Assembly: GCA_950097015.1 (NCBI GenBank)
Contig: CATNEN010000001.1
Location: 17,484,001-17,548,000, forward strand
Direction: 5' to 3'
From: Macrostomum hystrix
Lineage: Eukaryota > Animalia > Platyhelminthes
Length of the DNA: 64,000 nt
Made by a program: the position numbers and the translations under genes. The first letter of the stretch is position 1; the number at the start of each line of letters is the position of its first letter. This document shows, piece after piece, positions 42,031-63,619 of this stretch. The notes beneath the pieces were generated by a model. That model made no database searches. It worked only from the letters and a program-made list of their open reading frames with translations, and was not told the origin of the DNA.

Positions 42031-42032
42031 GC

Positions 42033-42722: not shown

Positions 42723-42913
42723 ATGTATTATAATTTGAATACCACCAAGCTAGAAAATCAAATTTTCCATTTTATACTACTAATTAGTAGAGTCATAGAG
42801 CAGATTATGAAATATTACCCCTGGTTGCTTTGTTTAAGGAAAAATGATAGCATGCTTTATTACGTGCTTTGCACAGGCCTAAATTCATAATTAATTTTAC
42901 TTTTCAGCAAACC

Positions 42914-43321
42914 ATGTCTGCGAGAAGGAAGACACAAATTCCGATGGCCGAGTATGATGGACGTATGATGTACGCCGTCCGCAGGGCTATTCATGATGGT
43001 ATAGCCGCCATCGTAGACGGTTGCGGCGGCGTCTGCGAACTAATGTGGCTGGCCTATCAGGCGCTCCCAACGGCCGGGATCGATGAGATCATGCTGCTGT
43101 TGGCCGGTTACCATAACCGGCACGCGGCAATCCAAGCCACACCCGGCATTAACATCGTTGAGATGCAAGAAGGGGCCTATTATGTACTTCAGGGCCCGCC
43201 CACGCAGCAGCGAGTTCGGGACTTGCTGGCAGCTCAGGGCATCGAGCTACCAGAGCCCGCAGGTTGGTGGCAGCAGCTAGGCTCCGAATCAGGCTACGAC
43301 AGCATGTCTGATTCCGAGTGA
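42914..43321 (+). CDS. Array copy 1: 135-aa LOTUS/OST-HTH-like protein
   Basis: ATG follows a ttttcag acceptor; LOTUS-like pattern L..AY..L...LAGY....AI...P.I.IV. Confidence 0.6.
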   Translation: MSARRKTQIPMAEYDGRMMYAVRRAIHDGIAAIVDGCGGVCELMWLAYQALPTAGIDEIMLLLAGYHNRHAAIQATPGINIVEMQEGAYYVLQGPPTQQRVRDLLAAQGIELPEPAGWWQQLGSESGYDSMSDSE

Positions 43322-44005
43322 GCTTCCTGAACACGGCTTCCCTAATTTTAAATCCCTACTTCAAAATCCCTAATTTCTTGCATTTCTTAATTTCTTGAAA
43401 AAAGACTTGCATTTTGTATTTTTTTGCTGTATACTGTATTGCCGATTTGGCTCTTCTTCTGCTTCTTTTCTTGCCCCCGTGTTGTCAATCTCATCATGCT
43501 AAGCACCTCAATATTATGCACACTTTCTTCCTATTGTATATATCACAGAAACAATTACATTTTATCTTTTCTTGTTTATCATGTTGTATATAATCATTAT
43601 GTTGTCAATTATTAAATATTACTATCTATGTTGTCTTCCACACCAATCAAACACCTCTGCGCTGTAACATATTTTAGTTTTTTATCCCTTAATGTGATTG
43701 CGTTTTTTTTTCAAGTAAAATGTGCTTTTAGGGCTTAAGCAAATAGCTCTTTGTTAAGGAAACAACTCTTCATATTCGTTAGATTTTTTAAAGTAAAAGT
43801 TTTAGGGCTAAATTAGGATGTATTATAATTTGAATACTACCAAGCTAGAAAATCAAATTTTCCATTTTATACTACTAATTAGTAGAGTCAGAGCAGATTA
43901 TGAAATATTACCCCTGGTTGCTTTGTTTAAGGAAAAAAGATAGCATGCTTTATTACGTGCTTTGCACAGGCCGAAATTCATAATTAATTTTCTTTTCAGC
44001 AAACC

Positions 44006-44413
44006 ATGTCTGCGAGAAGGAAGACCCAAATTCCGATGGCCGAGTATTCGCGAATAATCGGCAGCGCCGTCCGCAGGGCTATTCATGATGTTATAGCCGC
44101 CATCGTAGACGGTTGCGGCGGCGTCTGCGAACTAATGTGGCTGGCCTATCAGGCGCTCCCAACGGCCGGGATCGATGAGATCATGCTGCTGTTGGCCGGT
44201 TACCATAACCGGCACGCGGCAATCCAAGCCACACCCGGCATTAACATCGTTGAGATGCAAGAAGGGGCCTATTATGTACTTCAGGGCCCGCCCACGCAGC
44301 AGCGAGTTCGGGACTTGCTGGCAGCTCAGGGCATCGAGCTACCAGAGCCCGCAGGTTGGTGGCAGCAGCTAGGCTCCGAATCAGGCTACGACAGCATGTC
44401 TGATTCCGAGTGA
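44006..44413 (+). CDS. Array copy 2: 135-aa LOTUS-like protein
   Basis: Intact ORF, same pattern as copy 1. Confidence 0.6.
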   Translation: MSARRKTQIPMAEYSRIIGSAVRRAIHDVIAAIVDGCGGVCELMWLAYQALPTAGIDEIMLLLAGYHNRHAAIQATPGINIVEMQEGAYYVLQGPPTQQRVRDLLAAQGIELPEPAGWWQQLGSESGYDSMSDSE

Positions 44414-45098
44414 GCTTCCCGAACACGGCTTCCCTAATTTTAAATCCCTACTTCAAAATCCCTAATTTCTTGCATTTCTTAATTTCTTGAAAAAAGACTT
44501 GCATTTTGTATTTTTTTGCTGTATACTGTATTGCCGATTTGGCTCTTCTTCTGCTTCTTTTCTTGCCCCCGTGTTGTCAATCTCATCATGCTAAGCACCT
44601 CAATATTATGCACACTTTCTTCCTATTGTATATATCACAGAAACAATTACATTTTATCTTTTCTTGTTTATCATGTTGTATATAATCATTTTTTTGTCAA
44701 TTATTAAATATTACTATCTATGTTGTCTTCCACACCAATCAAACACCTCTGCGCTGTAACATATTTTAGTTTTTTATCCCTTAATGTGATTGCGTTTTTT
44801 GTTTCAAGAAAAATGTGCTTTTAGGGCTTAAGCAAATAGCTCTTTGTTAAGGAAACAACTCTTCATATTCGTTAGATTTTTTAAAGTAAAAGTTTTAGGG
44901 CTAAATTAGGATGTATTATAATTTGAATACTACCAAGCTAGAAAATCAAATTTTCCATTTTATACTACTAATTAGTAGAGTCAGAGCAGATTATGAAATA
45001 TTACCCCTGGTTGCTTTGTTTAAGGAAAAAAGATAGCATGCTTTATTACGTGCTTTGCACAGGCCGAAATTCATAATTAATTTTCTTTTCAGCAAAAC

Positions 45099-45767
45099 AT
45101 GTCTGCGAGAAGGAAGACCCGGGGGGCAATGGCCTGCGCCTCCACGAGGTGCCCCCCGGAGGACGCAAGTCCTACGAAATGCAGGCCATCAAACGGGCCC
45201 TCCCAAAGCCCAGCAAAGCACAGCACAGCACAGCCCTATCTCCCTGCCCGGAGCCCGCTGCGGTCTTTGAATGCTGTGCTTCCGTGCTGGCCCTGCTTGG
45301 GAAGGCGGGCATCATCTGATGCCCGGTGCCATGGGCCCTGGCCCGCGCACGCCCGAAGAAGAAGAAGAAGAAGGAAGACCCAAATTCCGATGGCCGAGTA
45401 TTCGCGAATAATCGGCAGCGCCGTCCGCAGGGCTATTCATGATGTTATAGCCGCCATCGTAGACGGTTGCGGCGGCGTCTGCGAACTAATGTGGCTGGCC
45501 TATCAGGCGCTCCCAACGGCCGGGATCGATGAGATCATGCTGCTGTTGGCCGGTTACCATAACCGGCACGCGGCAATCCAAGCCACACCCGGCATTAACA
45601 TCGTTGAGATGCAAGAAGGGGCCTATTATGTACTTCAGGGCCCGCCCACGCAGCAGCGAGTTCGGGACTTGCTGGCAGCTCAGGGCATCGAGCTACCAGA
45701 GCCCGCAGGTTGGTGGCAGCAGCTAGGCTCCAAATCAGGCTACGACAGCATGTCTGATTCCGAGTGA
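45099..45767 (+). CDS. Array copy 3 with in-frame 261-bp retroposon insertion
   Basis: 222 aa = 135 + 87. Confidence 0.5.
   Translation: MSARRKTRGAMACASTRCPPEDASPTKCRPSNGPSQSPAKHSTAQPYLPARSPLRSLNAVLPCWPCLGRRASSDARCHGPWPAHARRRRRRRKTQIPMAEYSRIIGSAVRRAIHDVIAAIVDGCGGVCELMWLAYQALPTAGIDEIMLLLAGYHNRHAAIQATPGINIVEMQEGAYYVLQGPPTQQRVRDLLAAQGIELPEPAGWWQQLGSKSGYDSMSDSE
45121..45189 (+). ncRNA. HDV-like self-cleaving ribozyme
   Basis: P1 GGGGGGC/GCCCCCC, P2 AUGGCCUGC/GCAGGCCAU, P3 GCC/GGU, L3 UCCACGA, P1.1 CC/GG, P4 AGGAC-GCAA-GUCCU, J4/2 ACGAAAU with candidate catalytic C45175. Confidence 0.85.
45121..45368 (+). mobile_element. Ribozyme-headed short non-autonomous retroposon, copy 1
   Basis: Absent from units 1, 2 and 5; 13-bp TSD agaaggaagaccc (45108-45120, 45369-45381); (GAA)n tail. 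Confidence 0.9.
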
Positions 45768-46474
45768 GCTTCCCGAACACGGCTTCCCTAATTTTAAATC
45801 CCTACTTCAAAATCCCTAATTTCTTGCATTTCTTAATTTCTTGAAAAAAGACTTGCATTTTGTATTTTTTTGCTGTATACTGTATTGCCGATTTGGCTCT
45901 TCTTCTGCTTCTTTTCTTGCCCCCGTGTTGTCAATCTCATCCTGCTAAGCACCTCCATATTATGCACACTTTCTTCCTATTGTATATATCACAGAAACAA
46001 TTACATTTTATCTTTTCTTGCTTATCATGTTGTATATAATCATTATGTTGTCAATTATTAAATATTACTATCTATGTTGTCTTCCACACCAATCAAACAC
46101 CTCTGCGCTGTAACATATTTTAGTTTTTTATCCCTTAATGTGATTGCGTTTTTTGTTTCAAGTAAAATGTGCTTTTAGGGCTTAAGCAAATAGCTCTTTG
46201 TTAAGGAAACAACTCTTCATATTCGTTAGATTTTTTAAAGTAAAAGTTTTAGGGCTAAATTAGGATGTATTATAATTTGAATACTACCAAGCTAGAAAAT
46301 CAAATTTTCCATTTTATACTACTAATTAGTAGAGTCAGAGCAGATTATGAAATATTACCCCTGGTTGCTTTGTTTAAGGAAAAAAGATAGCATGCTTTAT
46401 TACGTGCTTTGCACAGGCCGAAATTCATAATTAATTTTCTTTTCAGCAAAACATGTCTGCGAGAAGGAAGACCC

Positions 46475-46543
46475 GGGGGGCAATGGCCTGCGCCTCCACG
46501 AGGTGCCCCCCGGAGGACGCAAGTCCTACGAAATGCAGGCCAT
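46475..46543 (+). ncRNA. HDV-like ribozyme, copy 2
   Basis: Same as 45121-45189. Confidence 0.85.
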
Positions 46544-46722
46544 CAAACGGGCCCTCCCAAAGCCCAGCAAAGCACAGCACAGCACAGCCCTATCTCCCTG
46601 CCCGGAGCCCGCTGCGGTCTTTGAATGCTGTGCTTCCGTGCTGGCCCTGCTTGGGAAGGCGGGCATCATCTGATGCCCGGTGCCATGGGCCCTGGCCCGC
46701 GCACGCCCGAAGAAGAAGAAGA
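46475..46722 (+). mobile_element. Ribozyme-headed retroposon, copy 2 (duplicated with its array unit)
   Basis: Same sequence, site and TSD as copy 1. Confidence 0.9.
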
Positions 46723-48289
46723 AGAAGGAAGACCCAAATTCCGATGGCCGAGTATTCGCGAATAATCGGCAGCGCCGTCCGCAGGGCTATTCATGATGTT
46801 ATAGCCGCCATCGTAGACGGTTGCGGCGGCGTCTGCGAACTAATGTGGCTGGCCTATCAGGCGCTCCCAACGGCCGGGATCGATGAGATCATGCTGCTGT
46901 TGGCCGGTTACCATAACCGGCACGCGGCAATCCAAGCACCCGTATATACACGTTAGGCGGTATAGAACACGGCGAAAACCGCCTAAAAGGCGGTCCATAT
47001 CATGCTATATGATATCGTAGCATGATATAGACCGCCTTTTTTAAGCGCATAAAGGCCTTTTATGGCACAAATTTGAACAGCCGTTTCTGCTAATTTTTTT
47101 AGTTCGCTAATGCAAAATATCTATTTTACTACTTTTTAGTAACAATAATTTTAGTGTCACTAGACAAATATTTGAATGGCTTAGTACAAGTGCTAACAGG
47201 TAATATTAATTTATGTAAGCCCAGGGCCTAGCTGTTTATTATTTTTTTATTTCCAAGTCATTGAAACATTAGACAGTCACAGCATTATGGTATATCTTAC
47301 ATATTAGTCCATTAGAACTCGAGAACAATAAGACTAAACTTTAAAAGTATGGCAGGAATAGGATGGCGCTCAGTTTTTAGCTAGGCCTATCGCCGCCTAT
47401 GCCCTAGTTTAATATAGAAATAATATAGTAAAGCTTAAAACCTATGCTAGCTGTATATTGAGCAGGCATAATAATTAGCTATTCTAGTATACTATTGCCT
47501 AGCTGCTAGCTGTAGAATGAGTGCCTTCTGCTTGGCACACTGACAAGATAGCTGTCCTATCATCTATAATTTTACTGTGATTTTACTGTGATATCATTTT
47601 TTGTAATTTTCTTATTTTCTTCCCATTTTTAAAAGCAAGTAGGGCGGCTAGGGCCTAAACAAATTAAAATTTTCAGATTTTTTTTGCAATTAGTTAACTA
47701 ATACGGTGTCTTCTTGAAGTATTTAAAAATATATTTCTATAATTGTTAGTGTGCTGTCCAGATAAGCAGGAAATTATTCCTACAGTAGGGGCCTACCATA
47801 GGAATAAGACAAAAAAATTTATGGCACTGTGGGGATAAGCACTGCCATAGAAAATTCTATACATAAGGGTCCCTAGTATGCTCAGCACACAATCATGGCA
47901 CACTAAGGCCCCTGGGGCACAACAACAATAACAATAGCAAAGCACACCACAGTAGAACAGAGTACAGTTCTAAAAGGTGTACACTATATTTAATCACTGT
48001 TCACATCATGACTATTTTCTTAGAAACAGTACAAAGAAACAGTTGGCAAAGAAGCATAGATGGCATACAGTTGGCCCAAAAATTGACCCCCAAATTTTTT
48101 CCTAGTGAAAACTATGCCATCTTTATTACTATGCTATGGGTCATAGTCAATCATGTACTATAAACTATAGTGATAACCAATATTCAAAATAAAATAGTAC
48201 TGTTGTCTTTTGTATATAGTATATTATTAGTAATTTTATATATTTTATCACTTACATTAGATGCATCTTTCTTATAAACCTATATCATG

Positions 48290-48830
48290 CTTGCCTTCCC
48301 TAAATCCTGCCAGCTATTAAATACCCTGCTGGCCTTTTCTATATCCTGCTAGCATTTTTGACCCTGTTGGCCTTCCACATACCCTGATAATGTTTCCTAT
48401 GCCCTAGCACCTATTCCTATGTCCTATTGGCCTTTCCTATACCCTGCTGGCACAATGAGTGCCTTATACCCTACTACTATTCCTTGATAGTCTTTCCCAC
48501 ACCCTGCTGGCCTTCCCCACACCCTGCTGGACTTCACCACACCTCGTGATGGCCTCTACTTCATTCTGCTGGTCATCCCTGCACCTTAATGGCCATTCCC
48601 ACACCCTGGTGGCCTTTCCCACACCCTGGTGGCCTTCCCCACACCCTGCTGGCCTTTCCCACACCCTGCTTGCCTTCACCACACATTGATGGCCATCCAC
48701 ACACCTTGATGACCTTTCCCAAACCCTGGTGGTCTTCCCCATACCCTGATGGCCTATCCCTGATACAGTTAGCCTTCTCAATCTGGCCATCCACTTACCC
48801 GATGGCCTTTTGCACACCTTGGTGCTCCAG
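48290..48830. repeat. Degenerate 20-bp tandem array (acaccctgctggccttcccc)
   Basis: Reverse complement of the 60380-61990 array. Confidence 0.85.
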
Positions 48831-49136
48831 GCGAATGTATGTATGCCACAACCTGGTCACTCACGGAAGCTTATTTTAATATATATTTCCATTATACTAC
48901 GGGTGTGTCATAAGAAATGTCACTGTGGTTGTTGTGCGGGAAACCAAAGCAATAATCATCCAAATATATTATATTCTGAAAGTAGTATGACTACTATAAG
49001 TACTTATTATAAGCTATTAGATTACTATAACAAGTAACCTAAGGAATTAGTCTAAAGGAAGACTTAGGACTTATCAATATAAGTCTCTAGATTTTTGCGC
49101 TATGTAAAAGCTGGTATTGGTTCTTTAAAATTTCAG

Positions 49137-51396
49137 ATGTCACGTTCTGCTAGAAGGCCTAGTGCTTGGAACGTATTTGAGCGAATTAATTACGATCCTA
49201 GTTTAAACGTTGTTGGTATGCATTTAATTCAGATTTAAATTTATTCAATCCACTCACTCAGATGCCACATTCAACATAAAATAGTTTAAGAAACAGTGTC
49301 ACTTTAGCTCTCAAATTTTTTAATGCTTATGAGATCTTTAAGCTCGAATGGTAATCCTAAATTTCAGATCAAGTCAGCGGCCTTCGCGAGCGCTATGCTT
49401 TGCTTGACAAGCAGGGGAAGGAAGCCTTGCGTGCCCAAGCCGCAGAACGCACAGATACCGCCTCTTTTCAGCGGAAGAAGCTGGTTAGCATGGCTAACAG
49501 CATCGTAAGCAATAAAGTTCGAATGCATGCATTCATGCACGTAGTATACTCCCTTAGGCAATTATGAACTTTGTTGCTAATCTCAATGTATGCCTTCACT
49601 ACAAGGTCGAGTCAGCCGATAATGCAGGCTACCACGTTATCGTGCTGCTGCATTCCAAAGCTGAAGGTGCCACTACCGTGTATGAATCGCAGGAAGTCGT
49701 AGGCTTCTGTGAGCGAGCGAATGTCGCCTCAGTAAGTATCTCGTAAAATCGCAGGTACTTGTTTACTGACAGTATTCAAATAAATTTTTAATCTTAGTTA
49801 TTAGGGTTTTATTATAGTTTTTGTTAAATACTCACAGTTTATCTAAAATCGAACATTTTTTTGGCTTTTCAATCGTGCGTGTCGTCTGCTTCTGCTTCTC
49901 GGCCTAAGACTGCGGCTACCTTGCGCATTGCTGTCAGCAATATGCTGCAGAACAAGTTTAGTAAGTACGGGCTGACAATCGCATGCCTGGGTCCTATTCG
50001 AAGCCACATCATCGTTTTTCCACTCGTATTAATTTCTGGTACTTTAACACGGACTCTCGTCCGTGTTAAAATGATTGCAAGGCTATGCTATGTTTGAGAA
50101 TTACGAATATTACATTAGATAATTGCAACAACTGAAATTCCGTTATATTAAGTTGCAAGTAAATCACGTACAAAATTATAAACATTGCTAGTTTCAATTA
50201 TGCTCATAAACACGCTTTTATTTCTACTTTTAGAAAGAGCAATTGGCAGACGGCAGTTGCAATTTGGAAAAGTTGCACTGTACGGTCGATGGATTCACTG
50301 GCCGGCCGGAGTTCGAAGTGATATTCACCCACAAAAGCTCTCAAAAACAGAGCTTCAAAAAGTCTGGGATGCCAGGGCCCAAATAAAATTTGAAAAAAAG
50401 ATCAGTGAAGTCACTTTCTACAGCGACTCACCACTTCAGCCGGGAACGAGCAGCGATCTACCTGTGCTGCCGGGAACGAGCAGCGACTCACCTGTGCTAC
50501 CGGGAACGAGCAGCGACTCACCTGTGCTACCGGGAACGAACAGCGACTCACCTGTGCTACCGGGAATGAGCAGGGACTCACATGCGTTAGTCCAAGTCGG
50601 TGGGACAGCTGTGCAACCGGTCAAAGTCGGCGGGACAGCTGTGCAACCGGTCAAAGTCGGTGGGACAGCTGTGCAACCGGTCAAAGTCGGCGGGACAGCT
50701 GTGCAACCGGTCAAAGTCGGCAGGACCGCTGTGCAACCGGTCAAAGTCGGCAGGACCGCTGTGCAACCGGTCAAAGTCGGCGGGACAGCTCCAGCTGTGC
50801 AACCGGTCAAAGTCGGCGGGACAGCTCCAGCTGTGCAACCGGTCAAAGTCGGTGGGACAGCTGTGCAACCGGTCAAAGTCGGCGGGACAGCTGTGCAACC
50901 GGTCAAAGTCGGCAGGACCGCTGTGCAACCGGTCAAAGTCGGCAGGACCGCTGTGCAACCGGTCAAAGTCGGCGGGACAGCTGTGCAACCGGTCAAAGTC
51001 GGCAGGACCGCTGTGCAACCGGTCAAAGTCGGCAGGACCGCTGTGCAACCGGTCAAAGTCGGCGGGACAGCTGTGCAACCGGTCAAAGTCGGTGGGACAG
51101 CTGTGCAACCGGTCAAAGTCGGCGGGACAGCTGTGCAACCGGTCAAAGTCGGTGGGACAGCTGTGCAACCGGTCAAAGTCGGTGGGACAGCTGTGCAACC
51201 GGTCAAAGTCGGCGGGACAGCTGTGCAACCGGTCAAAGTCGGCGGGACAGCTGTGCAACCGGTCAAAGTCGGCGGGACAGCTGTGCAACCGGTCAAAGTC
51301 AGCGGGACAGCTGTGCAACCGATCAAAGTCGGCAGGACCGCTGTGCAACCGGTCCAGAGTAGCAGCCAAGAAACAATAGTAGTGGTGGATTATTAA
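49137..51396 (+). CDS. KDZ accessory gene, spliced, HMG-box-like N-terminus and repeat tail
   Basis: Exons 49137-49215, 49368-49504, 49606-49731, ~49864-49960, 50233-51396 join in frame: RRPSAWNVF...LRERYALLDKQGKEALRAQA; exon-4 acceptor is non-canonical. Confidence 0.65.
50422..51355 (+). repeat. Two 30-bp coding minisatellites (SSDSPVLPGT)n and (AVQPVKVGGT)n
   Basis: About 5 and about 25 units. Confidence 0.95.
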
Positions 51397-51909
51397 ATGA
51401 GTAATGAATAAACAGTTTTTTTAAAGCTACGGAAATCGATTTTCTACGATTATGTAACTGTAATCATCCTAAAGACCTAAACCCTCAAAAAGGTTCTTGC
51501 GCAGTGAGACACTGCGCTCTGGTTGTTAGTTGATGCCTTCAGCGTACCATTCTTCACCTGGGTGTTTGCACCACGAAGCGAAATTACCAGCTTCTGGACC
51601 TAGAGAGCTGCCACCTCCAAATTCTGAGGGGACAGCTCTGGCGATGAGCAGTGTGATAAAGCTGTGGGACGGAACGCAGGTGTCTGCCTGCGCATTGTCC
51701 GAAGCTTTGTCATGGGCTAGCGCTGGTGGCATTATCAAGCCTCTTTTCCTTGATATCGACCTTCAGGTGGAGTAGGAGTTTACGGTGACCCCGCTTCTCA
51801 GGCAGCCACTCAATCAACAGCACTCCCAGCGAATCCAAAAGATGGCGCCCACCTGCTTCTTCATCTATGGTGTCGCCTTGTCCTTCAGTGGAGTGGGTTC
51901 AGCTGCGAA

Positions 51910-52485
51910 AATATCGACTTATCCCCTGTCACGACATAATAAACTCCTCTTGGCGGCATTGAATAATGTGAATCAGCTGCTGCGCCCTGTTGCGCTGCAT
52001 CAGTGAAGTAAGGAGTTTCTGCACACATCTAGCAAAAACCTTCGATATTTTCAACTGAGCCGTAGGATGGGCTGTGCAGCCATAACTGATGCCACAGGCC
52101 TCTGCTATCTCAGCAACAGTCACTCAACTGTCCTCGTGGACGACACTGAGTGGTGGAGATCCTAAGTCTCCGACTGCGAGCTTCACCATCGAAGTCACAT
52201 TTGCCTCCATGGAAATGGTGAATCTAAGGGACACAATTTGTCTGTTTGAGGCAAGCCCCATGCGCTGAAAAAAGGCAGTGAAAGAACTTTTTGATTGTCC
52301 CTCATAAGTCTAACCACGTATCTGTTAAGGATAATGATAACCTACGATTCAACGCTCCGTCCGGCATTTAAAATTTTATAAAGTATATCTATAGAACTTT
52401 TAACAGTAAAATTTTCGAATTTCGTAGCAGTGGTAAACAAACAATCAATTGAAAAGTTCAATGCAGCAAAATGATAAACCCCTCG
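51910..52485 (-). mobile_element. Mariner 5' fragment nested in the KDZ element
   Basis: TVAEIAEACGISYG..KVFARCVQKLL (WVPK-like); terminus cccctcg|ta at 52485. Confidence 0.75.
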
Positions 52486-54804
52486 TATAATCGATTCCTT
52501 ATGGAATCTCTTTTAGCTCAAGTGTTTGTTTCTGTTGGGATCACCGTACTTTCAGCCGGTAATTAAATTTCTGTGAATTATTTCACAGGAATCACAGCCC
52601 TTTACTGTTTTACAACCTAGTTGACCTACAGCTGTTTCTTTACTGCATGCAATTCACGCTATTTAGTGTTGCCATTTCAGCTTCCATTGCTTCTTTTGTC
52701 CACCTTCTCAAAGTTTTATACAGATACCTTTTAAAACATACTTTTCTAACATAAATTTGCATTTTATACAGCCATTTATGTTATTTTTCAAAGACTTTTA
52801 ATATAATGAAGTCCCCTCAAATAATAGTAACGTTGATGCTAGTAATTAGTAAAATATATTTAATTACAAAAGTAATATAAAAAATACTTTATCCTTTGCT
52901 ACTGTTATTTTTCATTGGAGCGATTTTGATATCGATCAGCGATTGGACGGTTCACTTGTTCGGACTTGTAATTATTTTTTTTAGTTTTCGAAACACGTGT
53001 TTGGGCTCTCGTTTTTGGAAACTTTAGGACCTCTGCAGGGCCAGCCAGTTGGCAAGCATTTAGGGGCTGCCGTGTTGGTGGCTCTACTGGTTGATCTCAA
53101 AGTCATAGCTGAATAAGTGACCGCTATCGGGTTGTCTATGACCTGGCACACCAATCAGCACCAGGGGCGTAGCCAGGATTTTCGGTTAGGTAGCGCAAAC
53201 GGCGCCAATTGTGTTTATAGGCGCTCAAGTGACGCCAAATCAGCGCCTATACGGCACCAAGTGGGTGCTGAAAAGGCACGAAAATCGGCGCTGAAAGTGC
53301 GCCAGCTGGAAGGAGAGCACCAAGCCTGCGTGAAGGGGGCGCTGCATACCTTTGCGGCAGTAGCTAATGTAAGAATCTGGCCCTCCACGCGTTACTATGA
53401 CTACTTAAATTCACTACAGTTTTTCATCATCATACGAACACGAAATGGAGAAATACGCATGTACATCTATGTATACAGCTTCAATATATTTGAGATGGAC
53501 AAGAAATCCTTCTCTGCGTTTTGCTAGCGGTGCAGCGGATTCCAGCGAATGGTCTGGACGTTGCGAACTCATCCAGAAACCTGTTCAGCCCACCTGATTT
53601 AGGGACGACCCCGCGGTGGGCCAGCCACCACACGCCTGCAGCAGTTACTCGTACATTAGGTTAGCACCTCTGTTGCTTAGTAGCTCCTGCCATAACGTCC
53701 CCAGCTAGTGTACAGGAGCATCGATCCGGATCCCTCGCCCCTGCTGTCTTCGCGGCAGCTCTCGCCTGGCGCCCTCGCAGCTTCCGCTACACACCCACCG
53801 ACAACTCTGGCCATTATCCTTTATAAAGCGGGTATAATTTTCTTTTAATTTCTCAATTTAACTCAACTCTATTTCTACCTAAGAGACAAATCAATCGGAC
53901 TCGGCAGTCGTAGTTTTCTTCCATATGGGTTCTCTTGAATGATTCGCTATAGAACGGGCCGGTAAAGACGGCTCGATCACAGTTCCGCTATCCTTACTTG
54001 TAAACTACAACACAGACTGTGCCTCTGCTCCAAAAATGGATGGCTTTTTGCGCGCTTACTTGCTTAGTATTCAGTTGGCCTCAGCTAATTGGGCTAATAA
54101 ACAAAAATAATTTATAGAAACGTAAAAACTGACACGCGTCAAACATATATGATTTAGTCGTACTAAAAAAGTCACACAACGTGCAAGTTACAAAAAGTGG
54201 CAAATCACATATGAATAAGCAATAACGCAGACAGGTGGGGTTCGCACTGCTAGCGCACTGACTAGTGGACGCTTAGGGTTAGAATGGCCATTGCAGGTTG
54301 AAAGAGAAAGAGTTGAAAGTTTTTTTAGGCAAGCGTTTGGGCAAATGGACTGTGCTGTCTATTATACGAGTTATATTATAAAAGCATGGCGGCGTCTTTA
54401 CAGGGTGCTGACTTTTATATAAGAACGAGCGGAATTCCTCCTGCGAAAGAAGTTAGGGGATCAAACTCCCATCGCCCGAATTTCATCTATCAAACTCTAG
54501 CAATTCGAAGAGAACTCTGAACTTTAAATTGGGTGAACTCAGAATGAGGACAGGACTTATTTAAGGACAGGGAGGTTGCTCTACATTGTAAGTACATTTG
54601 TCTCTCCGCCAATGCCGAGGTGCGAATTTTCAAAAAGTTAAATTTGAGCAGCCTGCTTGCAGATTTCGTGAATGGAATTTGGCACCCAGCCAACTCTGCC
54701 CCAGCCCAATGTAATTTACGCAATTCGATCAGTATTGAAAAAATCTGACCCCTCAATAGCAGCTTGACTCGCGGCACCCTCTGCACCCATACACTGAGGC
54801 CTGA

Positions 54805-55043
54805 GAGCCGGTTATTTTTGTTTCGCTCGATCTTCACTTTCAACATCCCGTTCCCGTTCCTTCCTATTGGCTCGTGACTGCCATAGACGAACTCGTTTTT
54901 TCCACTAGCATTATAGTCCACGATATTACTTTCAGAGGGGGACGAAAACGAGCTCGTCTATGGCAGTCACGAGCCAATAGGAAGGAACGGCCGGAAACGG
55001 GATGTTAAAAGTGAAGATCGAGCGAAACAAAAAGAACCGGCTC
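54805..55043. repeat. ~95-bp inverted repeat with ~45-bp spacer
   Basis: Arms 54805-54900 and 54945-55043. Confidence 0.9.
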
Positions 55044-56454
55044 AGATTGGCACTCCATTCTATTCTTTCCTCCATAGGCCTGAGGTTAGAATGTGAGTAC
55101 GGCCTCCTCCGCCCCGTCAATTTTGAGTACAGACCCCCGCTGGAGAAAATACACTAAATAGATCGTCGACAATTTCTGATGAAACCATTTGATTCTTCGT
55201 CTGGGAAGATGTGTGCTACTGAATACTACAGACACTTTCTTCTGCTTCTCTGAGGATCTTTGAATTCGAAATTTCTGAATTGCGTAAAATATCCTATATA
55301 GCCAAGTCGAAAAATTCCCTTTTACTACTAAAATTTATACGCTTAGTACTGCATGCAGTATACCCTCGTAAATGCAGGTAGTCAAAAACCTAATTAGCAC
55401 CAGTTCCATGCTAGTCCTCGACAGCAGTGTGAGCAGCAACATCTACACTGGCTATGGGCGTAGTACTCGGCGCGAATGATGTGAATATGTTCGATCGTAG
55501 CTCGTGTTTTGACAGTATCATTTGGGTTATTGAGCTATAGTAATTTAAAAGTATACTGAACGTAGAACGGTTTACTGTACAAGTGGCATGAGGGTAAATC
55601 TCTTTACCATTGTAAGAACTAGCAATTTAATACATGTATGAAATTATTAAGCTAGTCGCTCTTTGTCCTTCTCTCTCTATAAAGCTTTGAAATTCTCGAT
55701 AGCTGGTTTGACGAAGCAGTAAAAGCTACGTTTGTTGGTTTTTTTTTGGAGACTTGTACTGTTGTGGCGAAAAACGAATAAATAAATAACAATTGACACG
55801 TCGATTCCACATTTAAACACAGCTTGCACATAATAACTCGATTGGACCTGAGAGAAAGGTCAGACTTAGTGATCTTCGGTTTTAATAAAAATAATTGTCT
55901 CAGTAGTGATTAATGCAGGATGAGCAATTAGCAAAGTGCTTTAGAAATAGGAAAAAGCAGTACATCAAATCATTCGGCTTTATTTATTAACTGGGCACTG
56001 TGCCAGAAACCTATGCGCGGAATTCTCACGTAAAATCGATGAGGATTGGGGGGAAGCTGGGGAAGGGATGTTGAGGAAGAGCCAGAAAAAAATGAAACAT
56101 TCCACAGCTCAAATTATGATGGTAAAACGGGATACACTGTGGGGAGACGGGTCTGAAGGCGCATGGGGAAGCAGATGGGGAGTATGGGGAGATGGGATAG
56201 GAAGACGGCGCTCTCTCATTGGCCGAGAGACAGATGTCTTTGTGGCGGGATGTGCTGACGGCTTTCCGGAGATTATAGAGGTTGGGTCGTGCATAGCTTG
56301 GGAAAAATTAATGCTGAAATTCGTGGCTGAAAAGTTTTGTTTCAATTGTATTAACAATAAACAAAACAGCAAGCTGCTTCTCAGGAGAAATTTTGACAGC
56401 AGAAAATTGACAGAAAATTTGACAGCAGAAAATTCGCAAGCTTTGATGGAATCG

Positions 56455-59400
56455 TTAAGAAAACTCGGAGTCATCCTCACTGGCAGACAATAAAGCTTGC
56501 GAATTTTCCGATTCACTGTCATGAGAATCGCACGACTCAGAATCCGGTTGTGTCTCCGCCATTGCTCCAAACGGGAAAGCGGCTTCATGAGCATGGCGTA
56601 AGCGCAATATACCACTTAGCCGAAGAGATAATACCGCAGTGAGTGGGCTGTTGCTATCTCGGGCGGCTTGCAACTCTGAGGTCACGGTTAGAACGGCAGC
56701 AGAAAGAAAATTATAAACACGCTTTGCCTCTGAAGTCACCAGGCGCGACTCTTCCGAGCATCGAAGGTACAGATCGCGAAGTTTTACGGCTTGCACCTTG
56801 TGAGTTAGGACCTCGACACCGACAGTGCCTCCATTTATAAGCTGCTCGAAGCCAGAGGCGTCTGTCGAAATGAAGTCATTCCAATCAAGTAGGTCCCTTG
56901 GATTTTTGCTGTTAAACCTTGAACAGACTATCTTTGTCTTGCGGAGCAGCTTGTCTGTGGCTACTCGAAGTAGCCTGTTCATACGCTGACCACGCTCTGT
57001 TGCCGCATGTTCGAGTAGATACTGCCGCTCGCATGCAATGCCAAATAGTTTTCGGATAGTCTCAGACTTGGGCGAGGATGACTCACGCGCAGATAGCACA
57101 TTGATCAGCTCTTGCCTCCAATCGGCTGTCTCTTGAAGGAATTCTTCAAGAGTCACTAATGGAGATACAGCGGATATTTAATGTAATATATATATTATTA
57201 ATATTTAATGATGGGGTTGTAGCCTGGTGGTTAGAGCGTCGGACTCACAACTTGAAGGTCGACAATTTGAGTCCTTTAGCAAGACACTTAACTCTGCTTT
57301 GCTTCAGTTCACCCAGCTGTCAAAATGGGGAATGAGTCAGGACTCACTGTGCACATTGTGATGCGCTTGAAATGCAGCAAAGCCAGCTTCGAATTGTTGC
57401 ACTGCCTTCTTTTCGACTGTTCGGCGGTGACTCAGCCAGGTCGCTGAAAAAGAAAAACATGCCGCATTTTTCACGCGAAATTTTAGCAACTATATTTGTT
57501 ACGAGAACAATAAGGCCCAATAAGATATCAATTCAATATTCTATGGAGAAATATATAAATGCAAATAATTAATCAGCGGATATAACTTCCATACTTATAT
57601 TTATAATGCAGTGAAAATTCATGCTGTCGACAAGGTAATTGAGAAATTCGCGCCGATTGTCATGCGACATCTCTTTAACCTGAGGGCTGAAGCGTCGAAG
57701 ATCTGCCCAGATTCTCTCTACGCTTTCACCATCCGTCAAGCCAACGGAGGTAATAGAACGAATTCCATACGTCAGTTGACAGCGCAGAACGTGCCCGTAG
57801 GTATGAAACGCCGGTATCGCGAATGACAACCGAGTGTCGTTGAACCGACCAGCCAGTTTGCACCCAATATCGTATGACACGACAATGGGAACCATTGCAG
57901 GAACGTCCCCCAAAATTTTGGCAACCATTGCTGTGGCGTAGTTGAGCCTGGTGATTAAATTGATCAGAGTTTGAACTTAAAAAATTAAGCATACACTCCT
58001 TCATTCTCCGCACTTTTCTTGTTTACTCCGCCCAGTTTCTCTCGCTCTCGTTATCTCTGCTCGCTATTATTCTGTCAGTCTCCTTTCTAATTCGTAGACA
58101 GCTCACACCAACTGCTAGGAATTCCTTATTATCCAACCCACTAACTCTCTCTAGAGTTAGCAAACAAAATAAGTTACAAAGTAAAACAATAACCACTCTG
58201 CCACTACCCATTTCAAAAATGGGACTAATTAGTCCTGCAACAAAGTTCTTTTACAATCAACTAGTTACCGTTCGCCTGCAGTAGTAACGTCGGACAGGTA
58301 GCGTATAGCAGAGTGTCTGCAGGAACCAGCAAAGGCCCCAAACACGTCTAGCTTGCCCCGGTCTGCAGCAGTCGTTAGAGTTTGACCTCTTCCACCCGCT
58401 CTCCAGTTCGCACAGTGTCCTGCAGAGGGATTGTGATCATCAGTAAGGTCAACGTCAACGAAAAAGCCTGTTGGAGTTGGTAAAGCAGCTCTGCCTGCAG
58501 TTCGGCGATGGCGGAGACCGAAGCAGGCGTCCATCATCAGGAAAATTGGACTGCTCTTTTCGGCATCAGAGTCCGAATCAACCTACAGAAGTTACATGAC
58601 ATTTTAATAAAAGCCAATCAGTGTATTGCAATGAGAGAGCATGGTTATACTCGTACATATATGAAAGGAAGATCTTTTACCACATAGCATGCTGGACATG
58701 ATGGCTTTCTTCCCCAACGAAAGCTCTGCAGCACACGGCGGAAAGACCGGAACGCCCCAGTTACGTTGAGCGCTCTAAATAGATCGATCTAAAAATTTAA
58801 TGTATGAGAATGGCTGATTGTTAAGACACACCTATTACAAAATAATAGCAAGTTGGGCCAGTCTGATGAAAACTTGCTGATGTGGATGACTGCGCCCACA
58901 TAGACTTCTTGGAGCGCCTAATAGCACTGCAAATCGAAGACAACGATGCTGTGCAGTTGCAATTCAGCGAATCAATTAGAAGAAGCAGTTCAATAGACAC
59001 GGCAGTCAGTTCCCGAGAGCCCTCTGGTCGAGGCTGCAAGGGCCAAAATCCATGTGCCAGAAGAGCTGCGTGGTACGTAGTACATGTACACATCTCAAGA
59101 TTTGCTTTTAGTTCGCTTCCTGAAATGAGGTAGTGAGTACTGATACTGATTGAGTAAAGTCTTGCTAGAATATCAGTGTCCCCTAAATATGACGTTTGTT
59201 TTTGTAGCAATCGGCGTCATATTGCAGCTCAGAACATTCACGTGACTTGTTATTTTAAGAAGCTAAGTAACAAAGTAAGCTACTGCAAACAGAAAAAATG
59301 CAGAATTCAGCCGAGAATCACCATCTTCAGTCACAATAGTGACCGGAAGTACGCTGTAGAGAAGACAGCTGCACAGCCGAGAAAGCCGCACTTGTGATGA

Positions 59401-60117
59401 AACGGCCTCAAAGAAGTCACCCTGACGAGCGGGTAAAAAAGAGCACTGTCGCTAGAAATCATATATAAGAAAATACCCAATTCATGTAAAAATGCATTCA
59501 ATACAATATATAATATATAAATCATAATACAATATAAACAACATAATTATAAACCAGATCTGCATAGTATCGAACTTACATTCCAGCGTTGAACAGCATG
59601 GGGCGGCATATGGGCATGGCGGGCATCTAAGCAAGTGGAGCAGACCGATAGTAAGTGACACTTGAGGCACCGGAATATTTCAGTCTCGCAACCGCAAAAG
59701 ACACATGGGCGCTTGTTGTAGTGACCCGCTAAACCGACTGTCAAGACCCCTGACTGAAATAACTCATTCCAAGCGTCGTTTTCTTCGCTGCAAAAGGTCT
59801 TAAAACGGCTTGGCTTTGCGGACTTCGATTGAGCACGATCGTCATGAGTCTCGACTTCTTCAGCAACGATAGGGTCGTCTTGGATGTCCAACCATTCTTC
59901 TTCTTCTGGGTCGTTGTTGTATACAGGCTGGGTGTCACTGCATAGAAAGAAAGAGTAGTCAAGAAAAGTTGTGAATCATTTGAATTTTGAACCATTATAC
60001 TCACGGGATGCAACACTTCGATGTCAACGGAGTTCGAACGATACGTGCTCGCTTACGACACGCAGGAGTACAATACTTTACTGACGTCTTGGCAATAGAC
60101 TGCTTTCGTCTTCCCAT
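56455..60117 (-). CDS. Multi-exon CxC3-like + KDZ transposase
   Basis: CVFC..RCLKC..C..C...H...P.H, CTC..LLAHGFWP, CPAC, MDACFGL, LDVFGAFAGSCRH, GER, YDIGC, IPAFHTYGH..CQ, GLTDGESVERIW; about 9 exons. Confidence 0.92.
57212..57340 (+). mobile_element. tRNA-derived CORE-type SINE in a KDZ transposase intron
   Basis: A-box gtagcctggtggttagagc, decayed B-box, then gcaagacacttaac..cttcagttcacccagctgtcaaaatggg. Confidence 0.75.
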
Positions 60118-60379
60118 GTAGCTGAAATCAGATAAGCAAATAGTGTCGGATAATCGGATAAATATTTGATGATTACTAATTTTCAAAGACAATAAAAGAA
60201 TCAAAACAAAACGTATCCATAAAGCAGGTCGAAGCGAAGATTGCTTTAACAAAATAAAAGATAAGCGTCCAAGACTCACCCGGGTGTAGTCTGTTGCCTC
60301 GAGAAACGGGTATGTAAAGAAGAGAATCAGAAGGCAGGAAGGCACCAAAGTGAAAGAAAAGGCAGTAGAATTTGGAAAA

Positions 60380-61990
60380 GGCTAGCGTTGTGAGGGGAAG
60401 GCCAGCGTAGTGTGGGAAAGGCCAGCGTAGTGTGGGGAAGGCCATTAGGATGTGGCAGCAGGGTGTGGGGAAGGCCATCTGGGTGTGGGAAAGGCCAAAG
60501 AGGTGTGGGAAAGGCCACAGAGGTGTGGGAAAGGCCACAGAGGTGTGGGAAAGGCCACAGAGGTGTGGGAAAGGCCAGCGTAGTATGGGGAAGGCCAGCG
60601 CAGTGTGGGAAGGCCAGCGTAGTATGGGAAAGGCCATTAGGATGTGGCAGCAGGGTGTGGGGAAGGCCACCTGGGTGTGGGAAAGGCCATCAATATGGGG
60701 AAGCCCACATAGGAATGAATAAGGTCAGTAGGGTGTTGTGAAGGCCAAAAATGTGTGGGAAAGGCCACAGAGGTGTGGGAAAGGCCAGCGTAGTGTGGCG
60801 AAGGCCAGCGTTGGGTAAGGAAGGCCAGCGTAGTGTGGGGAAGGGCAGCGTAGTGTGGCGAAGGCCAGCGTTGGGTAAGGAAGGCCAGCGTAATGTGGGG
60901 AAGGCCATTAGTATGTGGCAGCAGGGTGTGGGAAGGCCACCTGGGTGTGGGAAAGGCCATCAATATGGGGAAGCCCACATAGGAATGAAGAAGGCCAGTA
61001 GGGTGTTGTGAAAGCCAAAAATGTGTTGGAAAGGCCACCTGGGTATGGGAAATGCCACAGAGGTGTGGGAAAGGCCATCAAGGTATGGGGAAGGCCACAT
61101 AGGAGTGGAGAAAGCCACATAGGAGTTAAAAGGCTAGTAGGGTGTTGTAAAGGCCATTAAGGTGTGGGGAAGGCCATAAAAGTGTAGGAAAATCCATCCA
61201 GGTGGGGAAGGACACAAAGGAGTAGAGAAGGCCAATAGGGCATGGTGAAGGCCAGTAGGGTATGGTGAAGGCCAGTAAGGTATGGTGAAGGCCAGTAGGG
61301 TATGGTGAAGGCCAGTAGGGTATGGTGAAGGCCAGTAGGGTATGTTGAAGGCCAGTAGGGTATGGTAAAGGCCAGTAGGGTATGGTGAAGGCCAGTAGGG
61401 TATGGTGAAGGCCAGTAGGGTATGGTGAAGGCCAGTAGGGTATGGTGAAGGCCAGTAGGGTATGAAGGCCAGTAGGGTATGTTGAAGGCCAGTAGGGTAT
61501 AGTGAAGGCTAGTAGGGTATGGTGAAGGCCAGTAGGGTATGGTGAAGGCCAGTAGGGTATGGTGAAGGCCAGTAAGGTATGGTGAAGGCCAGTAGGGTAT
61601 GGTGAAGGCCAGTAGGGTATGGTGAAGGCCAGTAGGGTATGGTGAAGGCCAGTAGGGTATGGTGAAGGCCAGTAGGGTATGGTGAAGGCCAGTAGGGTAT
61701 GGTGAAGGCCAGTAGGGTATGGTGAAGGCCAGTAGGGTATGGTGAAGGCCAGTAGGGTATGGTGAAGGCCAGTAGGGTATGGTGAAGGCCAGTAGGGTAT
61801 GGTGAAGGCCAGTAGGGTATGGTGAAGGCCAGTAGGGTATGGTGAAGGCCAGTAGGGTATGGTGAAGGCCAGTAGGGTATGGTGAAGGCCAGTAGGGTAT
61901 GGTGAATGCCAGTAGGGTATGGTGAAGGCCAGTAGGGTATGGTGAAGGCCAGTAGGGTATGGGGAAGGCCATCAAAGTGTGGCAAAAGCC
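60380..61990. repeat. 20-bp tandem array (ggtgaaggccagtagggtat)n
   Basis: Homogeneous at 61240-61970, degenerate at 60380-61240. Confidence 0.97.
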
Positions 61991-63619
61991 ACAAAGGAGT
62001 GGAGTGGTAACAAGTAAAGCCTCTGAAGCAACAATTGGCTTTAACCTACAACACAACATAGTAGTAGAATAGCTAGAACCTAATTATAAACTTAGGCCTA
62101 TAATTACAAACAATACACATATTTATGCCAGCAACTAGTTATACAATTTAGCTAGCTACAGGCCTACAGCTAGCAGCTAGGCAATAGTATACTAGAATAG
62201 CTAATTATTATGCCTGCTCAATATACAGCTAGCATAGGTTTTAAGCTTTACTATATTATTTCTATATTAAACTAGGGCATAGGCGGCGATAGGCCTAGCT
62301 AAAAACTGAGCGCCATCCTATTCCTGCCATACTTTTAAAGTTTAGTCTTACTGTTCTCGAGTTCTAATGGACTAATATGTAAGATATACCATAATGCTGT
62401 GACTGTCTAATGTTTCAATGACTTGGAAATAAAAAAATAATAAACAGCTAGGCCCTGGGCTTACATAAATTAATATTACCTGTTAGCACTTGTACTAAGC
62501 CATTCAAATATTTGTCTAGTGACACTAAAATTATTGTTACTAAAAAGTAGTAAAATAGATATTTTGCATTAGCGAACTAAAAAAATTAGCAGAAACGGCT
62601 GTTCAAATTTGTGCCATAAAAGGCCTTTATGCGCTTAAAAAAGGCGGTCTATATCATGCTACGATATCATATAGCATGATATGGACCGCCTTTTAGGCGG
62701 TTTTCGCCGTGTTCTATACCGCCTAACGTGTATATACGGGTGATCCAAGCCACACCCGGCATTAACATCGTTGAGATGCAAGAAGGGGCCTATTATGTAC
62801 TTCAGGGCCCGCCCACGCAGCAGCGAGTTCGGGACTTGCTGGCAGCTCAGGGCATCGAGCTACCAGAGCCCGCAGGTTGGTGGCAGCAGCTAGGCTCCAA
62901 ATCAGGCTACGACAGCATGTCTGATTCCGAGTGAGCTTCCCGAACACGGCTTCCCTAATTTTAAATCCCTACTTCAAAATCCCTAATTTCTTGCATTTCT
63001 TAATTTCTTGAAAAAAGACTTGCATTTTGTATTTTTTTGCTGTATACTGTATTGCCGATTTGGCTCTTCTTCTGCTTCTTTTCTTGCCCCCGTGTTGTCA
63101 ATCTCATCCTGCTAAGCACCTCCATATTATGCACACTTTCTTCCTATTGTATATATCACAGAAACAATTACATTTTATCTTTTCTTGCTTATCATGTTGT
63201 ATATAATCATTATGTTGTCAATTATTAAATATTACTATCTATGTTGTCTTCCACACCAATCAAACACCTCTGCGCTGTAACATATTTTAGTTTTTTATCC
63301 CTTAATGTGATTGCGTTTTTTTTTTCAAGTAAAATGTGCTTTTAGGGCTTAAGCAAATAGCTCTTTGTTAAGGAAACAACTCTTCGTATTCGTTAGATTT
63401 TTTAAAGTAAAAGTTTTAGGGCTAAATTAGGATGTATTATAATTTGAATACTACCAAGCTAGAAAATCAAATTTTCCATTTTATACTACTAATTAGTAGA
63501 GTCAGAGCAGATTATGAAATATTACCCCTGGTTGCTTTGTTTAAGGAAAAAAGATAGCATGCTTTATTACGTGCTTTGCACAGGCCGAAATTCATAATTA
63601 ATTTTCTTTTCAGCAAACC

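What the first reader, a model, noticed from the sequence alone, without database searches (positions are those of the whole stretch)
46937..62742. Young, possibly autonomous 15.8-kb animal KDZ transposon with exact boundaries
Seen: 579-bp almost identical TIRs. The empty site is known from sister array units, giving a 7-bp TSD with perfect CACCCG/CGGGTG ends (or 8-bp atccaagc with one asymmetric base). The transposase exons I traced join in frame without stops, except the exon 4/5 junction, which I did not resolve. Established: KDZ transposases carry CxC domains; Zisupton makes 8-bp TSDs. Fully delimited, intron-rich invertebrate examples appear to be poorly characterised.
Basis: partly seen in the sequence, partly recalled or inferred. 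Interest (0 to 1): 0.78.

Follow-up and report, generated by a model that had tools for sequence, protein, structure and literature searches.

The report
Intact two-gene flatworm KDZ transposon
This is a complete 15.8-kb jumping gene, likely from a Macrostomum flatworm, with exact ends, an unbroken transposase gene whose family is spliced in RNA data and a second gene with no known relatives; it is likely still able to move and is a clean animal example of a known but little-studied transposon group.

Summary
Confirmed and refined. The element spans 46937-62742, with 579-bp terminal inverted repeats (one mismatch), CACCCG..CGGGTG ends and a 7-bp target duplication; four sister array units show the empty site. 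The transposase has nine exons, not eight, giving 794 aa without stops. It carries the KDZ domain, the D-D-E triad and all 28 conserved residues tested. The finger upstream is CxC1-like, not CxC3. RNA-like contigs show six of eight introns spliced, settle the open exon 4/5 junction as a GC-AG intron, and show the Macrostomum spliced leader on exon 1. Intron 5 was seen only unspliced. A second, five-exon 518-aa gene with no detectable relatives faces the transposase. The transposase falls in a Macrostomum-rich clade that could not be placed in Kyakuja or Dileera; it is not Zisupton-like. The design (long repeats, CxC1-KDZ, unknown extra gene) is described in Cryptococcus, and this scan noted similar 7-bp, long-repeat and two-gene KDZ elements on other DNA. 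Autonomy is likely but untested. Repeat identity alone cannot date the insertion.

The parts
46930..46936 (.). Left target-site duplication (7 bp, ATCCAAG)
46937..47515 (+). Left terminal inverted repeat, 579 bp, starts CACCCG; four GGCGGT/ACCGCC motifs in the first 100 bp
   Evidence: 8 of the 10 such motifs in the element lie in the two TIR tips
48280..48760 (+). Left subterminal 20-bp minisatellite, inverted relative to the right one (70-82% complementary)
49137..51396 (+). Gene 2: five exons 49137-49215, 49368-49504, 49606-49731, 49909-49960, 50234-51396; 518 aa, open; C-terminal part is a 10-residue repeat (30-bp units, 50421-51354); no relatives found
   Evidence: model; intron 1 spliced in X13; introns 2-4 predicted from GT-AG sites; no hits
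51397..56454 (.). 5-kb spacer between the converging genes; holds a decayed mariner-like stretch near 51480-52310 (resemblance recalled, not confirmed) and a 240-bp inverted duplication 54805-55043
   Evidence: no relevant family or structure hit
56455..57155 (-). Transposase exon 9 (helical C-terminus, stop codon)
57211..57324 (+). Very high-copy tRNA-like (SINE-like) repeat inside intron 8; absent from the related copy in X18
   Evidence: depth 88,200-342,067 in that bin for X13 and X18; X18 skips 57188-57325; not called by ARAGORN or Rfam
57348..57443 (-). Transposase exon 8 (96 nt; missed by the sequence-only model)
   Evidence: X11 record 8, no differences; X13 joints
57595..57947 (-). 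Transposase exon 7: KDZ domain second half, catalytic D438 and E486
   Evidence: PF18758 E 2.8e-25
58269..58582 (-). Transposase exon 6: KDZ domain first half, catalytic D325
   Evidence: PF18758 E 4.3e-6
58583..58680 (-). Intron 5 (98 nt, GT-AG); seen only unspliced; retention would end the protein at about 318 aa, before the catalytic domain
   Evidence: X13 record 18, X11 record 13; stop read
58681..58788 (-). Transposase exon 5 (CPAC motif)
58789..58877 (-).
   Evidence: X13 joint 58788-58878, ends CT..GC on +
58878..59119 (-). Transposase exon 4: CxC1-like cysteine cluster
   Evidence: PF18802 E 1.3e-4, 22.5 bits, below the 26.9 cut-off
59322..59421 (-). Transposase exon 3
   Evidence: joint 59420-59579 in X10 and X13
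59580..59937 (-). Transposase exon 2: acidic stretch and B-box-like zinc finger
   Evidence: zf-B_box E 0.12, weak; family profile to Midline-1, E 9e-4
60005..60121 (-). Transposase exon 1; spliced-leader acceptor at 60121/60122, start codon at 60117
   Evidence: (X10 record 7 loose end) against the published leader
60378..61971 (-). Right subterminal 20-bp minisatellite (about 1.6 kb)
62164..62742 (-). Right terminal inverted repeat, 579 bp, ends CGGGTG
62743..62749 (.). Right target-site duplication (7 bp)
42720..46936 (+). Host tandem array (1092-1354-bp units, each with a small ORF); the element interrupts the ORF of one unit, and the array resumes at 62743

Best explanation
This is a complete KDZ-family DNA transposon with 579-bp inverted ends, a 7-bp target duplication and an intact nine-exon transposase gene, likely of a Macrostomum flatworm and likely still able to cut itself out and paste itself elsewhere. 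Shown: the boundaries, the open 794-aa frame, the KDZ domain with D325, D438 and E486, and splicing of six of eight introns plus addition of the host spliced leader to exon 1 in RNA-like contigs of this family. Inferred: the zinc fingers bind the TIR tips (repeated GGCGGT motifs) and perhaps the inverted 20-bp subterminal arrays; the DDE core cuts both ends and joins them to a target with a 7-bp stagger; host repair makes the duplication. The element uses the host's trans-splicing and minor GC-AG splicing like an ordinary gene. Output is likely kept low: the leader's own ATG would open a 23-codon out-of-frame reading just before the transposase start, and intron 5 is often retained. Gene 2 is most likely an element-encoded accessory protein, probably nucleic-acid or chromatin binding, like the unknown extra genes of fungal KDZ elements; that role is a guess.
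For: Ends, TSD and empty sites. KDZ hits. Open nine-exon frame. 28 of 28 invariant or near-invariant residues of a 45-protein alignment are kept. The RNA-based model scores best of 4 models against all 4 full-length relatives. Joints for introns 1, 2, 4, 6, 7, 8. Leader match of 20 of 20 letters. Against the related copy, 20 synonymous and 15 non-synonymous changes among the 35 exonic of 40 listed differences, more synonymous than neutral drift gives. A TIR end with a different flank in another organism code and study (X9), and a diverged TIR contig ending at 46937 in X1. The model of relative P0005 has an RNase H-like strand-helix order, and the only long non-hairpin match in the wide fold search is Tn5 transposase (Z 8.0, rmsd 5.6, 220 residues), which is weak.
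Against: No transposition or excision was observed. Introns 3 and 5 were not seen spliced (15 of 17 joints were listed); X13 record 18 is spliced at intron 6 yet keeps intron 5, and X11 also reads into it. The leader-bearing X10 contig leaves exon 1 into a sequence not found in the window, so it may come from another, rearranged copy. The RNA runs carry other organism codes than the best DNA holder, and 'RNA' is the tool's guess, so this exact insertion is not shown to be the expressed one. The TSD length rests on one insertion. Foldseek gave no match at E<=0.001.
Confidence: 0.72

Rival explanations
1. The element is structurally complete but this copy is silent or non-productive: transcripts come from other copies, or keep intron 5, so it moved recently but no longer makes transposase itself.
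For: Intron 5 seen only unspliced in X11 and X13; the X10 leader contig joins exon 1 to foreign sequence; RNA cover is patchy and low in the runs whose pieces are identical to the window. It sits inside a tandem array.
Against: Both genes are open, all 28 conserved residues are kept, and spliced pieces in X10 and X11 have no difference from the window. Contigs drop rare forms, and 2 joints were not listed.
Confidence: 0.2
2. The target duplication is 8 bp, as in Zisupton and most Dileera elements, and the left end has lost or lacks its terminal C.
For: The base after the 7-mer in the target is C, so both readings fit this site. CxC1-type fungal elements make 8-bp duplications.
Against: It needs an asymmetric end. 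Listed Dileera and Kyakuja consensus ends begin CAC (4 of the 6 such rows among 14 of 51 KDZ rows seen). Two other contigs align to exactly 46937, though either could be a right end. Seven-bp duplications with CA..TG ends are published for Kyakuja.
Confidence: 0.1
3. Gene 2 is a captured host gene or drifting cargo with no role in transposition.
For: No relative was found in any search; over half of it is a young 10-residue repeat; the spacer holds other debris.
Against: It has five exons with canonical sites and an open frame, is spliced and present in the diverged copy of X13, and extra genes are usual in KDZ elements.
Confidence: 0.35
4. The two genes have been domesticated and the element is a fixed host locus.
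For: Spliced, leader-bearing transcripts and an excess of synonymous changes.
Against: Near-perfect TIRs, an exact TSD, sister units differing at 3 of 1354 nt from the interrupted one, and a different flank in X9.
Confidence: 0.03

Closest known systems
Cryptococcus neoformans KDZ1, KDZ2, KDZ3 (Dileera clade; 10.1101/2024.08.15.608186, section 7 and passages; 10.1101/2025.05.19.654958, passages)
   Same: CxC1-type finger plus KDZ transposase, terminal inverted repeats, extra genes of unknown function, large size (9-11 kb there).
   Different: Animal host; TIRs of 579 bp against 139-241 bp; 7-bp TSD against 8 bp for KDZ1 and 4-8 bp for KDZ2/3; subterminal arrays; spliced-leader processing. No Cryptococcus sequence was in my tree.
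Kyakuja-1_LB and Kyakuja-2_LB of Laccaria and other fungal Kyakuja (PMC12730594, parts 1-3 of 7, passages, 14 of 51 KDZ rows of Table S1)
   Same: 7-bp TSD, 5'-CA..TG-3' ends, size near 15-16 kb for the two Auricularia rows seen.
   Different: Those two families have no TIRs and carry TET/JBP. Here there are long TIRs, no TET/JBP hit and no CxC2 hit, and the transposase does not group with the two CxC2 mushroom proteins in either tree.
Zisupton of fish and nematodes (Bohne 2012 not read, cited through PMC12730594, PMC9297572 and PMC12062965 passages)
   Same: Animal, multi-exon KDZ transposase between TIRs.
   Different: Zisupton makes 8-bp TSDs, has proteins up to about 1400 aa and CxC4/SWIM or CxC7 domains; none was found here (794 aa).
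Uncharacterised Macrostomum lignano KDZ gene models (UniRef A0A1I8GH28, A0A1I8HMS9; PAA55188, PAA87534, PAA89046)
   Same: Same clade (99/96 support); 67% identity over exon 7, 46% over 714 residues to PAA55188; same domain order.
   Different: They are annotated only as hypothetical or domain-containing proteins; I could not see their ends, TSDs or neighbours.
C. elegans Cer1 retrotransposon (PMC3315495, passages)
   Same: A transposon mRNA that receives the host spliced leader, with expression controlled by splicing.
   Different: An LTR retrotransposon in a nematode; there the unspliced form is the productive one.

Membership tests
KDZ DNA transposons | KDZ transposase domain PF18758 | tested here: met
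   Exon 7 E 2.8e-25, exon 6 E 4.3e-6, both above the cut-off, together covering profile 3-217
KDZ DNA transposons | Catalytic D, D, E and the conserved C/H residues | tested here: met
   D325, D438, E486; 28 of 28 conserved columns
KDZ DNA transposons | N-terminal CxC zinc cluster | tested here: inconclusive
   CxC1 E 1.3e-4, 22.5 bits against a 26.9 cut-off, on exon 4 alone; the domain is split over exons 3-4 and the joined protein could not be scanned
KDZ DNA transposons | Target-site duplication at defined ends | tested here: met
   7 bp with empty sister sites
KDZ DNA transposons | Demonstrated transposition | not testable with these tools
   Only indirect: other flank in X9
Kyakuja clade | 7-bp TSD and CA..TG termini | tested here: met
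Kyakuja clade | No TIRs (as reported for the two Laccaria families) | tested here: not met
   579-bp TIRs
Kyakuja clade | Transposase groups with Kyakuja references | tested here: inconclusive
   Not grouped with two CxC2 mushroom proteins, but that grouping is not rejected (p-AU 0.22); my taking CxC2 proteins as Kyakuja is recalled, and no labelled reference or outgroup was available
Dileera clade | CxC1 finger with KDZ, TIRs, extra genes (Cryptococcus KDZ1-3) | tested here: inconclusive
   TIRs and an extra gene present; CxC1 below cut-off
Dileera clade | 8-bp TSD (Zisupton-1_PGr, KDZ1) | tested here: not met
   7 bp favoured; KDZ2/3 are reported with 4-8 bp, so the feature is soft
Dileera clade | Transposase groups with Dileera references | tested here: inconclusive
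   Lies outside the 13-row basidiomycete CxC1-type clade (100/99); backbone unresolved; no labelled Dileera sequence in the tree
Zisupton | 8-bp TSD | tested here: not met
Zisupton | CxC4/SWIM or CxC7 domains in a long protein | tested here: not met
   No such Pfam hit on any exon or on the long relatives P0005, P0008, P0009, P0011
   No CxC3 hit at E<=1 on exons 2, 3, 4
TET/JBP-carrying KDZ elements | TET/JBP dioxygenase gene inside the element | tested here: not met
   No such Pfam hit on gene 2 exons or the longer spacer ORFs scanned

The most novel reading that the evidence does not exclude
It represents an undescribed animal KDZ lineage, separate from Kyakuja, Dileera and Zisupton, with 7-bp duplications, long TIRs and a dedicated partner protein, that controls itself through host RNA processing: the spliced leader's ATG damps translation, and regulated retention of intron 5 makes a zinc-finger-only repressor, as the P element does with its third intron (parallel recalled).
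Probability: 0.15. Interest if true: 0.72.

Novelty: new member of a known kind. Interest (0 to 1): 0.42.

Why it matters
KDZ transposons other than Zisupton have been delimited almost only in fungi and algae. My searches found no paper describing a delimited Kyakuja- or Dileera-type element in an animal, or any KDZ element in Macrostomum; the library lacks most subscription papers, and Repbase and Dfam could not be checked. No solved KDZ transposase core was found by sequence or by fold. An intact, exactly bounded copy with an RNA-corrected gene model, in a genus that is used in the laboratory, gives a ready substrate to test how KDZ enzymes cut, what sets a 7- or 8-bp duplication and what the extra genes do. 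It also shows that such elements sit in flatworm annotations as ordinary multi-exon, trans-spliced 'hypothetical' genes. It does not overturn anything known.

Tried and rejected
No whole genome is held, so copy number and other insertion sites could not be counted. The run search listed no holder on record as RNA; this is no evidence either way. An eight-exon model using the first AG for exon 3 and lacking exon 8 was open (772 aa) but was rejected on RNA joints and alignment scores, as was a GT donor at 58839. Gene 2: no hit in Pfam, the word-index search (8 candidates, none scored), the ESM Atlas (low recognition), seven metagenome KDZ loci or the proteins fetched up; its single-sequence fold was unusable (pLDDT 49). 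An HMG-box-like look of its start is my recollection and got no support; the exons had to be scanned apart. The third protein search was wasted on a wrong length range. The trees (67 rows, then 33 rows chosen mostly for having names; no Zisupton outgroup) did not resolve clade placement. Rfam and ARAGORN found nothing. The mariner-like spacer stretch got no relevant Pfam or PDB hit. Fold searches of the 703-aa relative were dominated by a helical hairpin. Iyer 2014 is not held. Kojima's Table S1 cells are cut at 400 letters, so 3' ends and TSDs were not visible; 12 of 16 supplements of PMC11588098 were searched without finding labelled reference ids; bioRxiv supplements were not seen. These files may hold clade labels or animal families that would change the placement.
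Full report
Boundaries. The inverted repeats are at 46937-47515 and 62164-62742, 579 nt with one mismatch, and similarity stops there. The element is 15,806 bp. It interrupts one unit of a tandem array; four other units in the window hold the unbroken site. Removing the element and one copy of ATCCAAG restores the sister sequence, and the rebuilt 1354-nt unit differs from its neighbour at 3 positions. An 8-bp reading is possible only if the left end lacks the C that the right end has. Against it: four of the six Dileera and Kyakuja rows among the 14 of 51 KDZ rows I saw in Kojima's table begin with CAC, and two contigs from other copies align to exactly 46937 (X9 record 17 with a new flank, and X1 record 1, a diverged TIR). 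Either could be a right end, so this is modest support. Inside the TIRs lie 20-bp minisatellites that are inverted relative to each other, and the TIR tips carry 8 of the element's 10 GGCGGT/ACCGCC motifs; a binding role is inferred.

Transposase. A first eight-exon model was open (772 aa). Contigs of four runs laid on 56400-60400 corrected it. Intron 2 ends at 59421 (X10 without differences; X13). Intron 4 is GC-AG, 89 nt (X13). Intron 6 is confirmed (X13). A 96-nt exon lies at 57443-57348 (X11 without differences; X13). Intron 1 is bridged in X13. The nine-exon model gives 794 aa with no internal stop and scores best of four models against all four full-length relatives. Exons 6 and 7 match PF18758 above cut-off; exon 4 matches CxC1 below cut-off; there is no CxC3 hit. 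Exon 2 has a weak B-box likeness. All 28 invariant or near-invariant residues of a 45-protein alignment are present, including D325, D438 and E486. Among the 35 exonic of the 40 differences listed (of 301) against the diverged copy in X13/X18, 20 are silent and 15 change a residue; about one in four would be silent under drift (general knowledge), so the family has been under purifying selection.

RNA processing. An X10 contig matches exon 1 without differences and continues past the acceptor at 60121/60122 with 20 letters identical to the end of the published 35-nt Macrostomum lignano spliced leader; that leader is reported as highly conserved in M. cliftonense and M. hystrix. An X13 contig that runs through exons 1-3 has 30 unaligned letters at the same place, not shown by the tool. 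Results against a simple picture: the X10 contig leaves exon 1 into a sequence absent from the window; intron 3 was not seen spliced, and one X13 contig runs through it; intron 5 was seen only unspliced, in X11 and in an X13 contig that is spliced at intron 6 (15 of 17 joints listed). Read from the sequence, retention would stop the protein at about 318 aa, with the fingers but without the catalytic domain, while spacing in relatives fits the spliced form. The leader's terminal ATG would open a 23-codon frame out of step with the transposase start. Both could damp expression; neither is shown to be regulatory. 'RNA' is the tool's guess for these runs, and they carry other organism codes than the best DNA holder.

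Second gene. A five-exon gene on the plus strand (49137-51396) is open for 518 aa with GT-AG introns; intron 1 is spliced in X13. More than half of it is a 10-residue repeat. No relative, family or usable fold was found. Cryptococcus KDZ elements also carry genes of unknown product, so an accessory role is my best guess, with passive cargo a serious rival.

Host and relatives. The nearest proteins are M. lignano gene models (67% over exon 7; 46% over 714 residues). The full-library search gave 1582 hits at E<=0.001; the named ones at the top are Macrostomum, then limpet, mussel, fish, sea urchin, priapulid and basidiomycete proteins (30 of 150 looked up). With the leader match, the host is likely a Macrostomum species. 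In a 33-row tree of the KDZ core, the window protein sits in an 8-row Macrostomum-rich clade (99/96 under the mixture model; 91/95 under LG+G4), outside the 13-row basidiomycete CxC1-type clade and apart from two CxC2 mushroom proteins. The backbone is unresolved, and joining it to the CxC2 pair is not rejected (p-AU 0.22). No labelled reference or Zisupton outgroup was available, so I file it as KDZ, clade unplaced.

Age and copies. In DNA run X1 the interior lies on unbranched contigs (pieces of 1137 and 1516 nt with 1 and 0 differences) at depth 210-235, and TIR pieces lie near twice that. This fits one sequence type with two TIRs per copy; absolute copy number is unknown. Both window TIRs have A at TIR position 266 (47202) where X1 and X9 read T at full depth, so the arms appear to change together and their identity is not a clock. 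Recent insertion rests on the near-identical target unit, the intact genes and the different flank in X9. A very high-copy tRNA-like repeat in intron 8 is missing from the X18 copy.

Mechanism. The fold of relative P0005 from the 45-row alignment is confident in the core (mean pLDDT 76.5, pTM 0.74). Foldseek found no match at E<=0.001. In the wide search the only long match beyond a helical hairpin was Tn5 transposase (Z 8.0, rmsd 5.6, 220 residues), which is weak but fits a DDE core. Cut-and-paste chemistry with a 7-bp stagger is inferred from the family and the duplication, not shown.

Comparison with print. Kojima 2025 (PMC12730594; parts 1-3 of 7, passages, part of Table S1) gives 8-bp TSDs for Zisupton and one Dileera family, and 7-bp TSDs with CA..TG ends and no TIRs for two Kyakuja families. 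Cryptococcus KDZ1-3 have CxC1, TIRs of 139-241 bp, extra genes and 8- or 4-8-bp TSDs. Pristionchus KDZ copies have TIRs but no TSD was detected (PMC9297572, passages). Kyakuja is noted in Chlamydomonas (passages). A leader-bearing transposon mRNA has a precedent in Cer1 (passages). I also saw passages of PMC8629364, PMC10468722, PMC12062965, PMC11343200, PMC5751038, PMC9674265 and PMC9977147 and searched supplements of PMC11588098; Iyer 2014 and Bohne 2012 were not read. Searches for Kyakuja, Dileera, Zisupton, CxC1 and Macrostomum listed no delimited non-Zisupton KDZ element from an animal. Earlier notes of this scan report 7-bp, long-TIR KDZ elements in fungi and two-gene KDZ elements in other invertebrates, unchecked by me.

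Verdict. It is a new member of a known kind with a combination of traits (7-bp TSD, long TIRs, CxC1-like finger, orphan partner, trans-splicing) that I did not find in print for an animal. Interest 0.42.

Noticed in passing
window 42720-46936 and 62743-64000: The host array is made of 1092-1354-bp units, each with a small ORF (about 134 aa, no Pfam hit) behind a splice-acceptor-like site; it follows a Helitron-like coding fragment at 42010-42720 (resemblance recalled, no Pfam hit).
   Followed up: partly
window about 45108-45381 and 46462-46735: Two array units carry the same in-frame 261-bp insert bounded by a 13-bp direct repeat and ending in a GAA run, like a small retroposed insertion that predates the last unit duplication.
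   Followed up: partly
window 60005 (run X10, record 7): A leader-bearing contig joins transposase exon 1 to 73 letters not found in the window: possibly a chimeric host transcript or a rearranged copy.
   Followed up: partly
window 57211-57324: A tRNA-like repeat with depth of 88,000-342,000 in X13 and X18: likely a major SINE family of these worms; not in Rfam.
   Followed up: partly
window 38273-42031: Nested inverted repeats (38273-38386/40379-40492, 39156-39492/41693-42031, 39490-39628/40883-41021) suggest overlapping foldback or TIR elements.
   Followed up: no
window 9496-11419: 241-bp, 99% complementary inverted repeats around 1.4 kb: a likely young non-autonomous DNA transposon.
   Followed up: no
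window 48878-49033 and 47474-47830: Short stretches inside the element with depth up to about 6,000 in X1 against 230 around them: small repeats shared with many other loci or with non-autonomous derivatives.
   Followed up: no
L001-L004, L007: KDZ transposase matches on very AT-rich (22-27% GC) metagenome contigs; host not identified.
   Followed up: no
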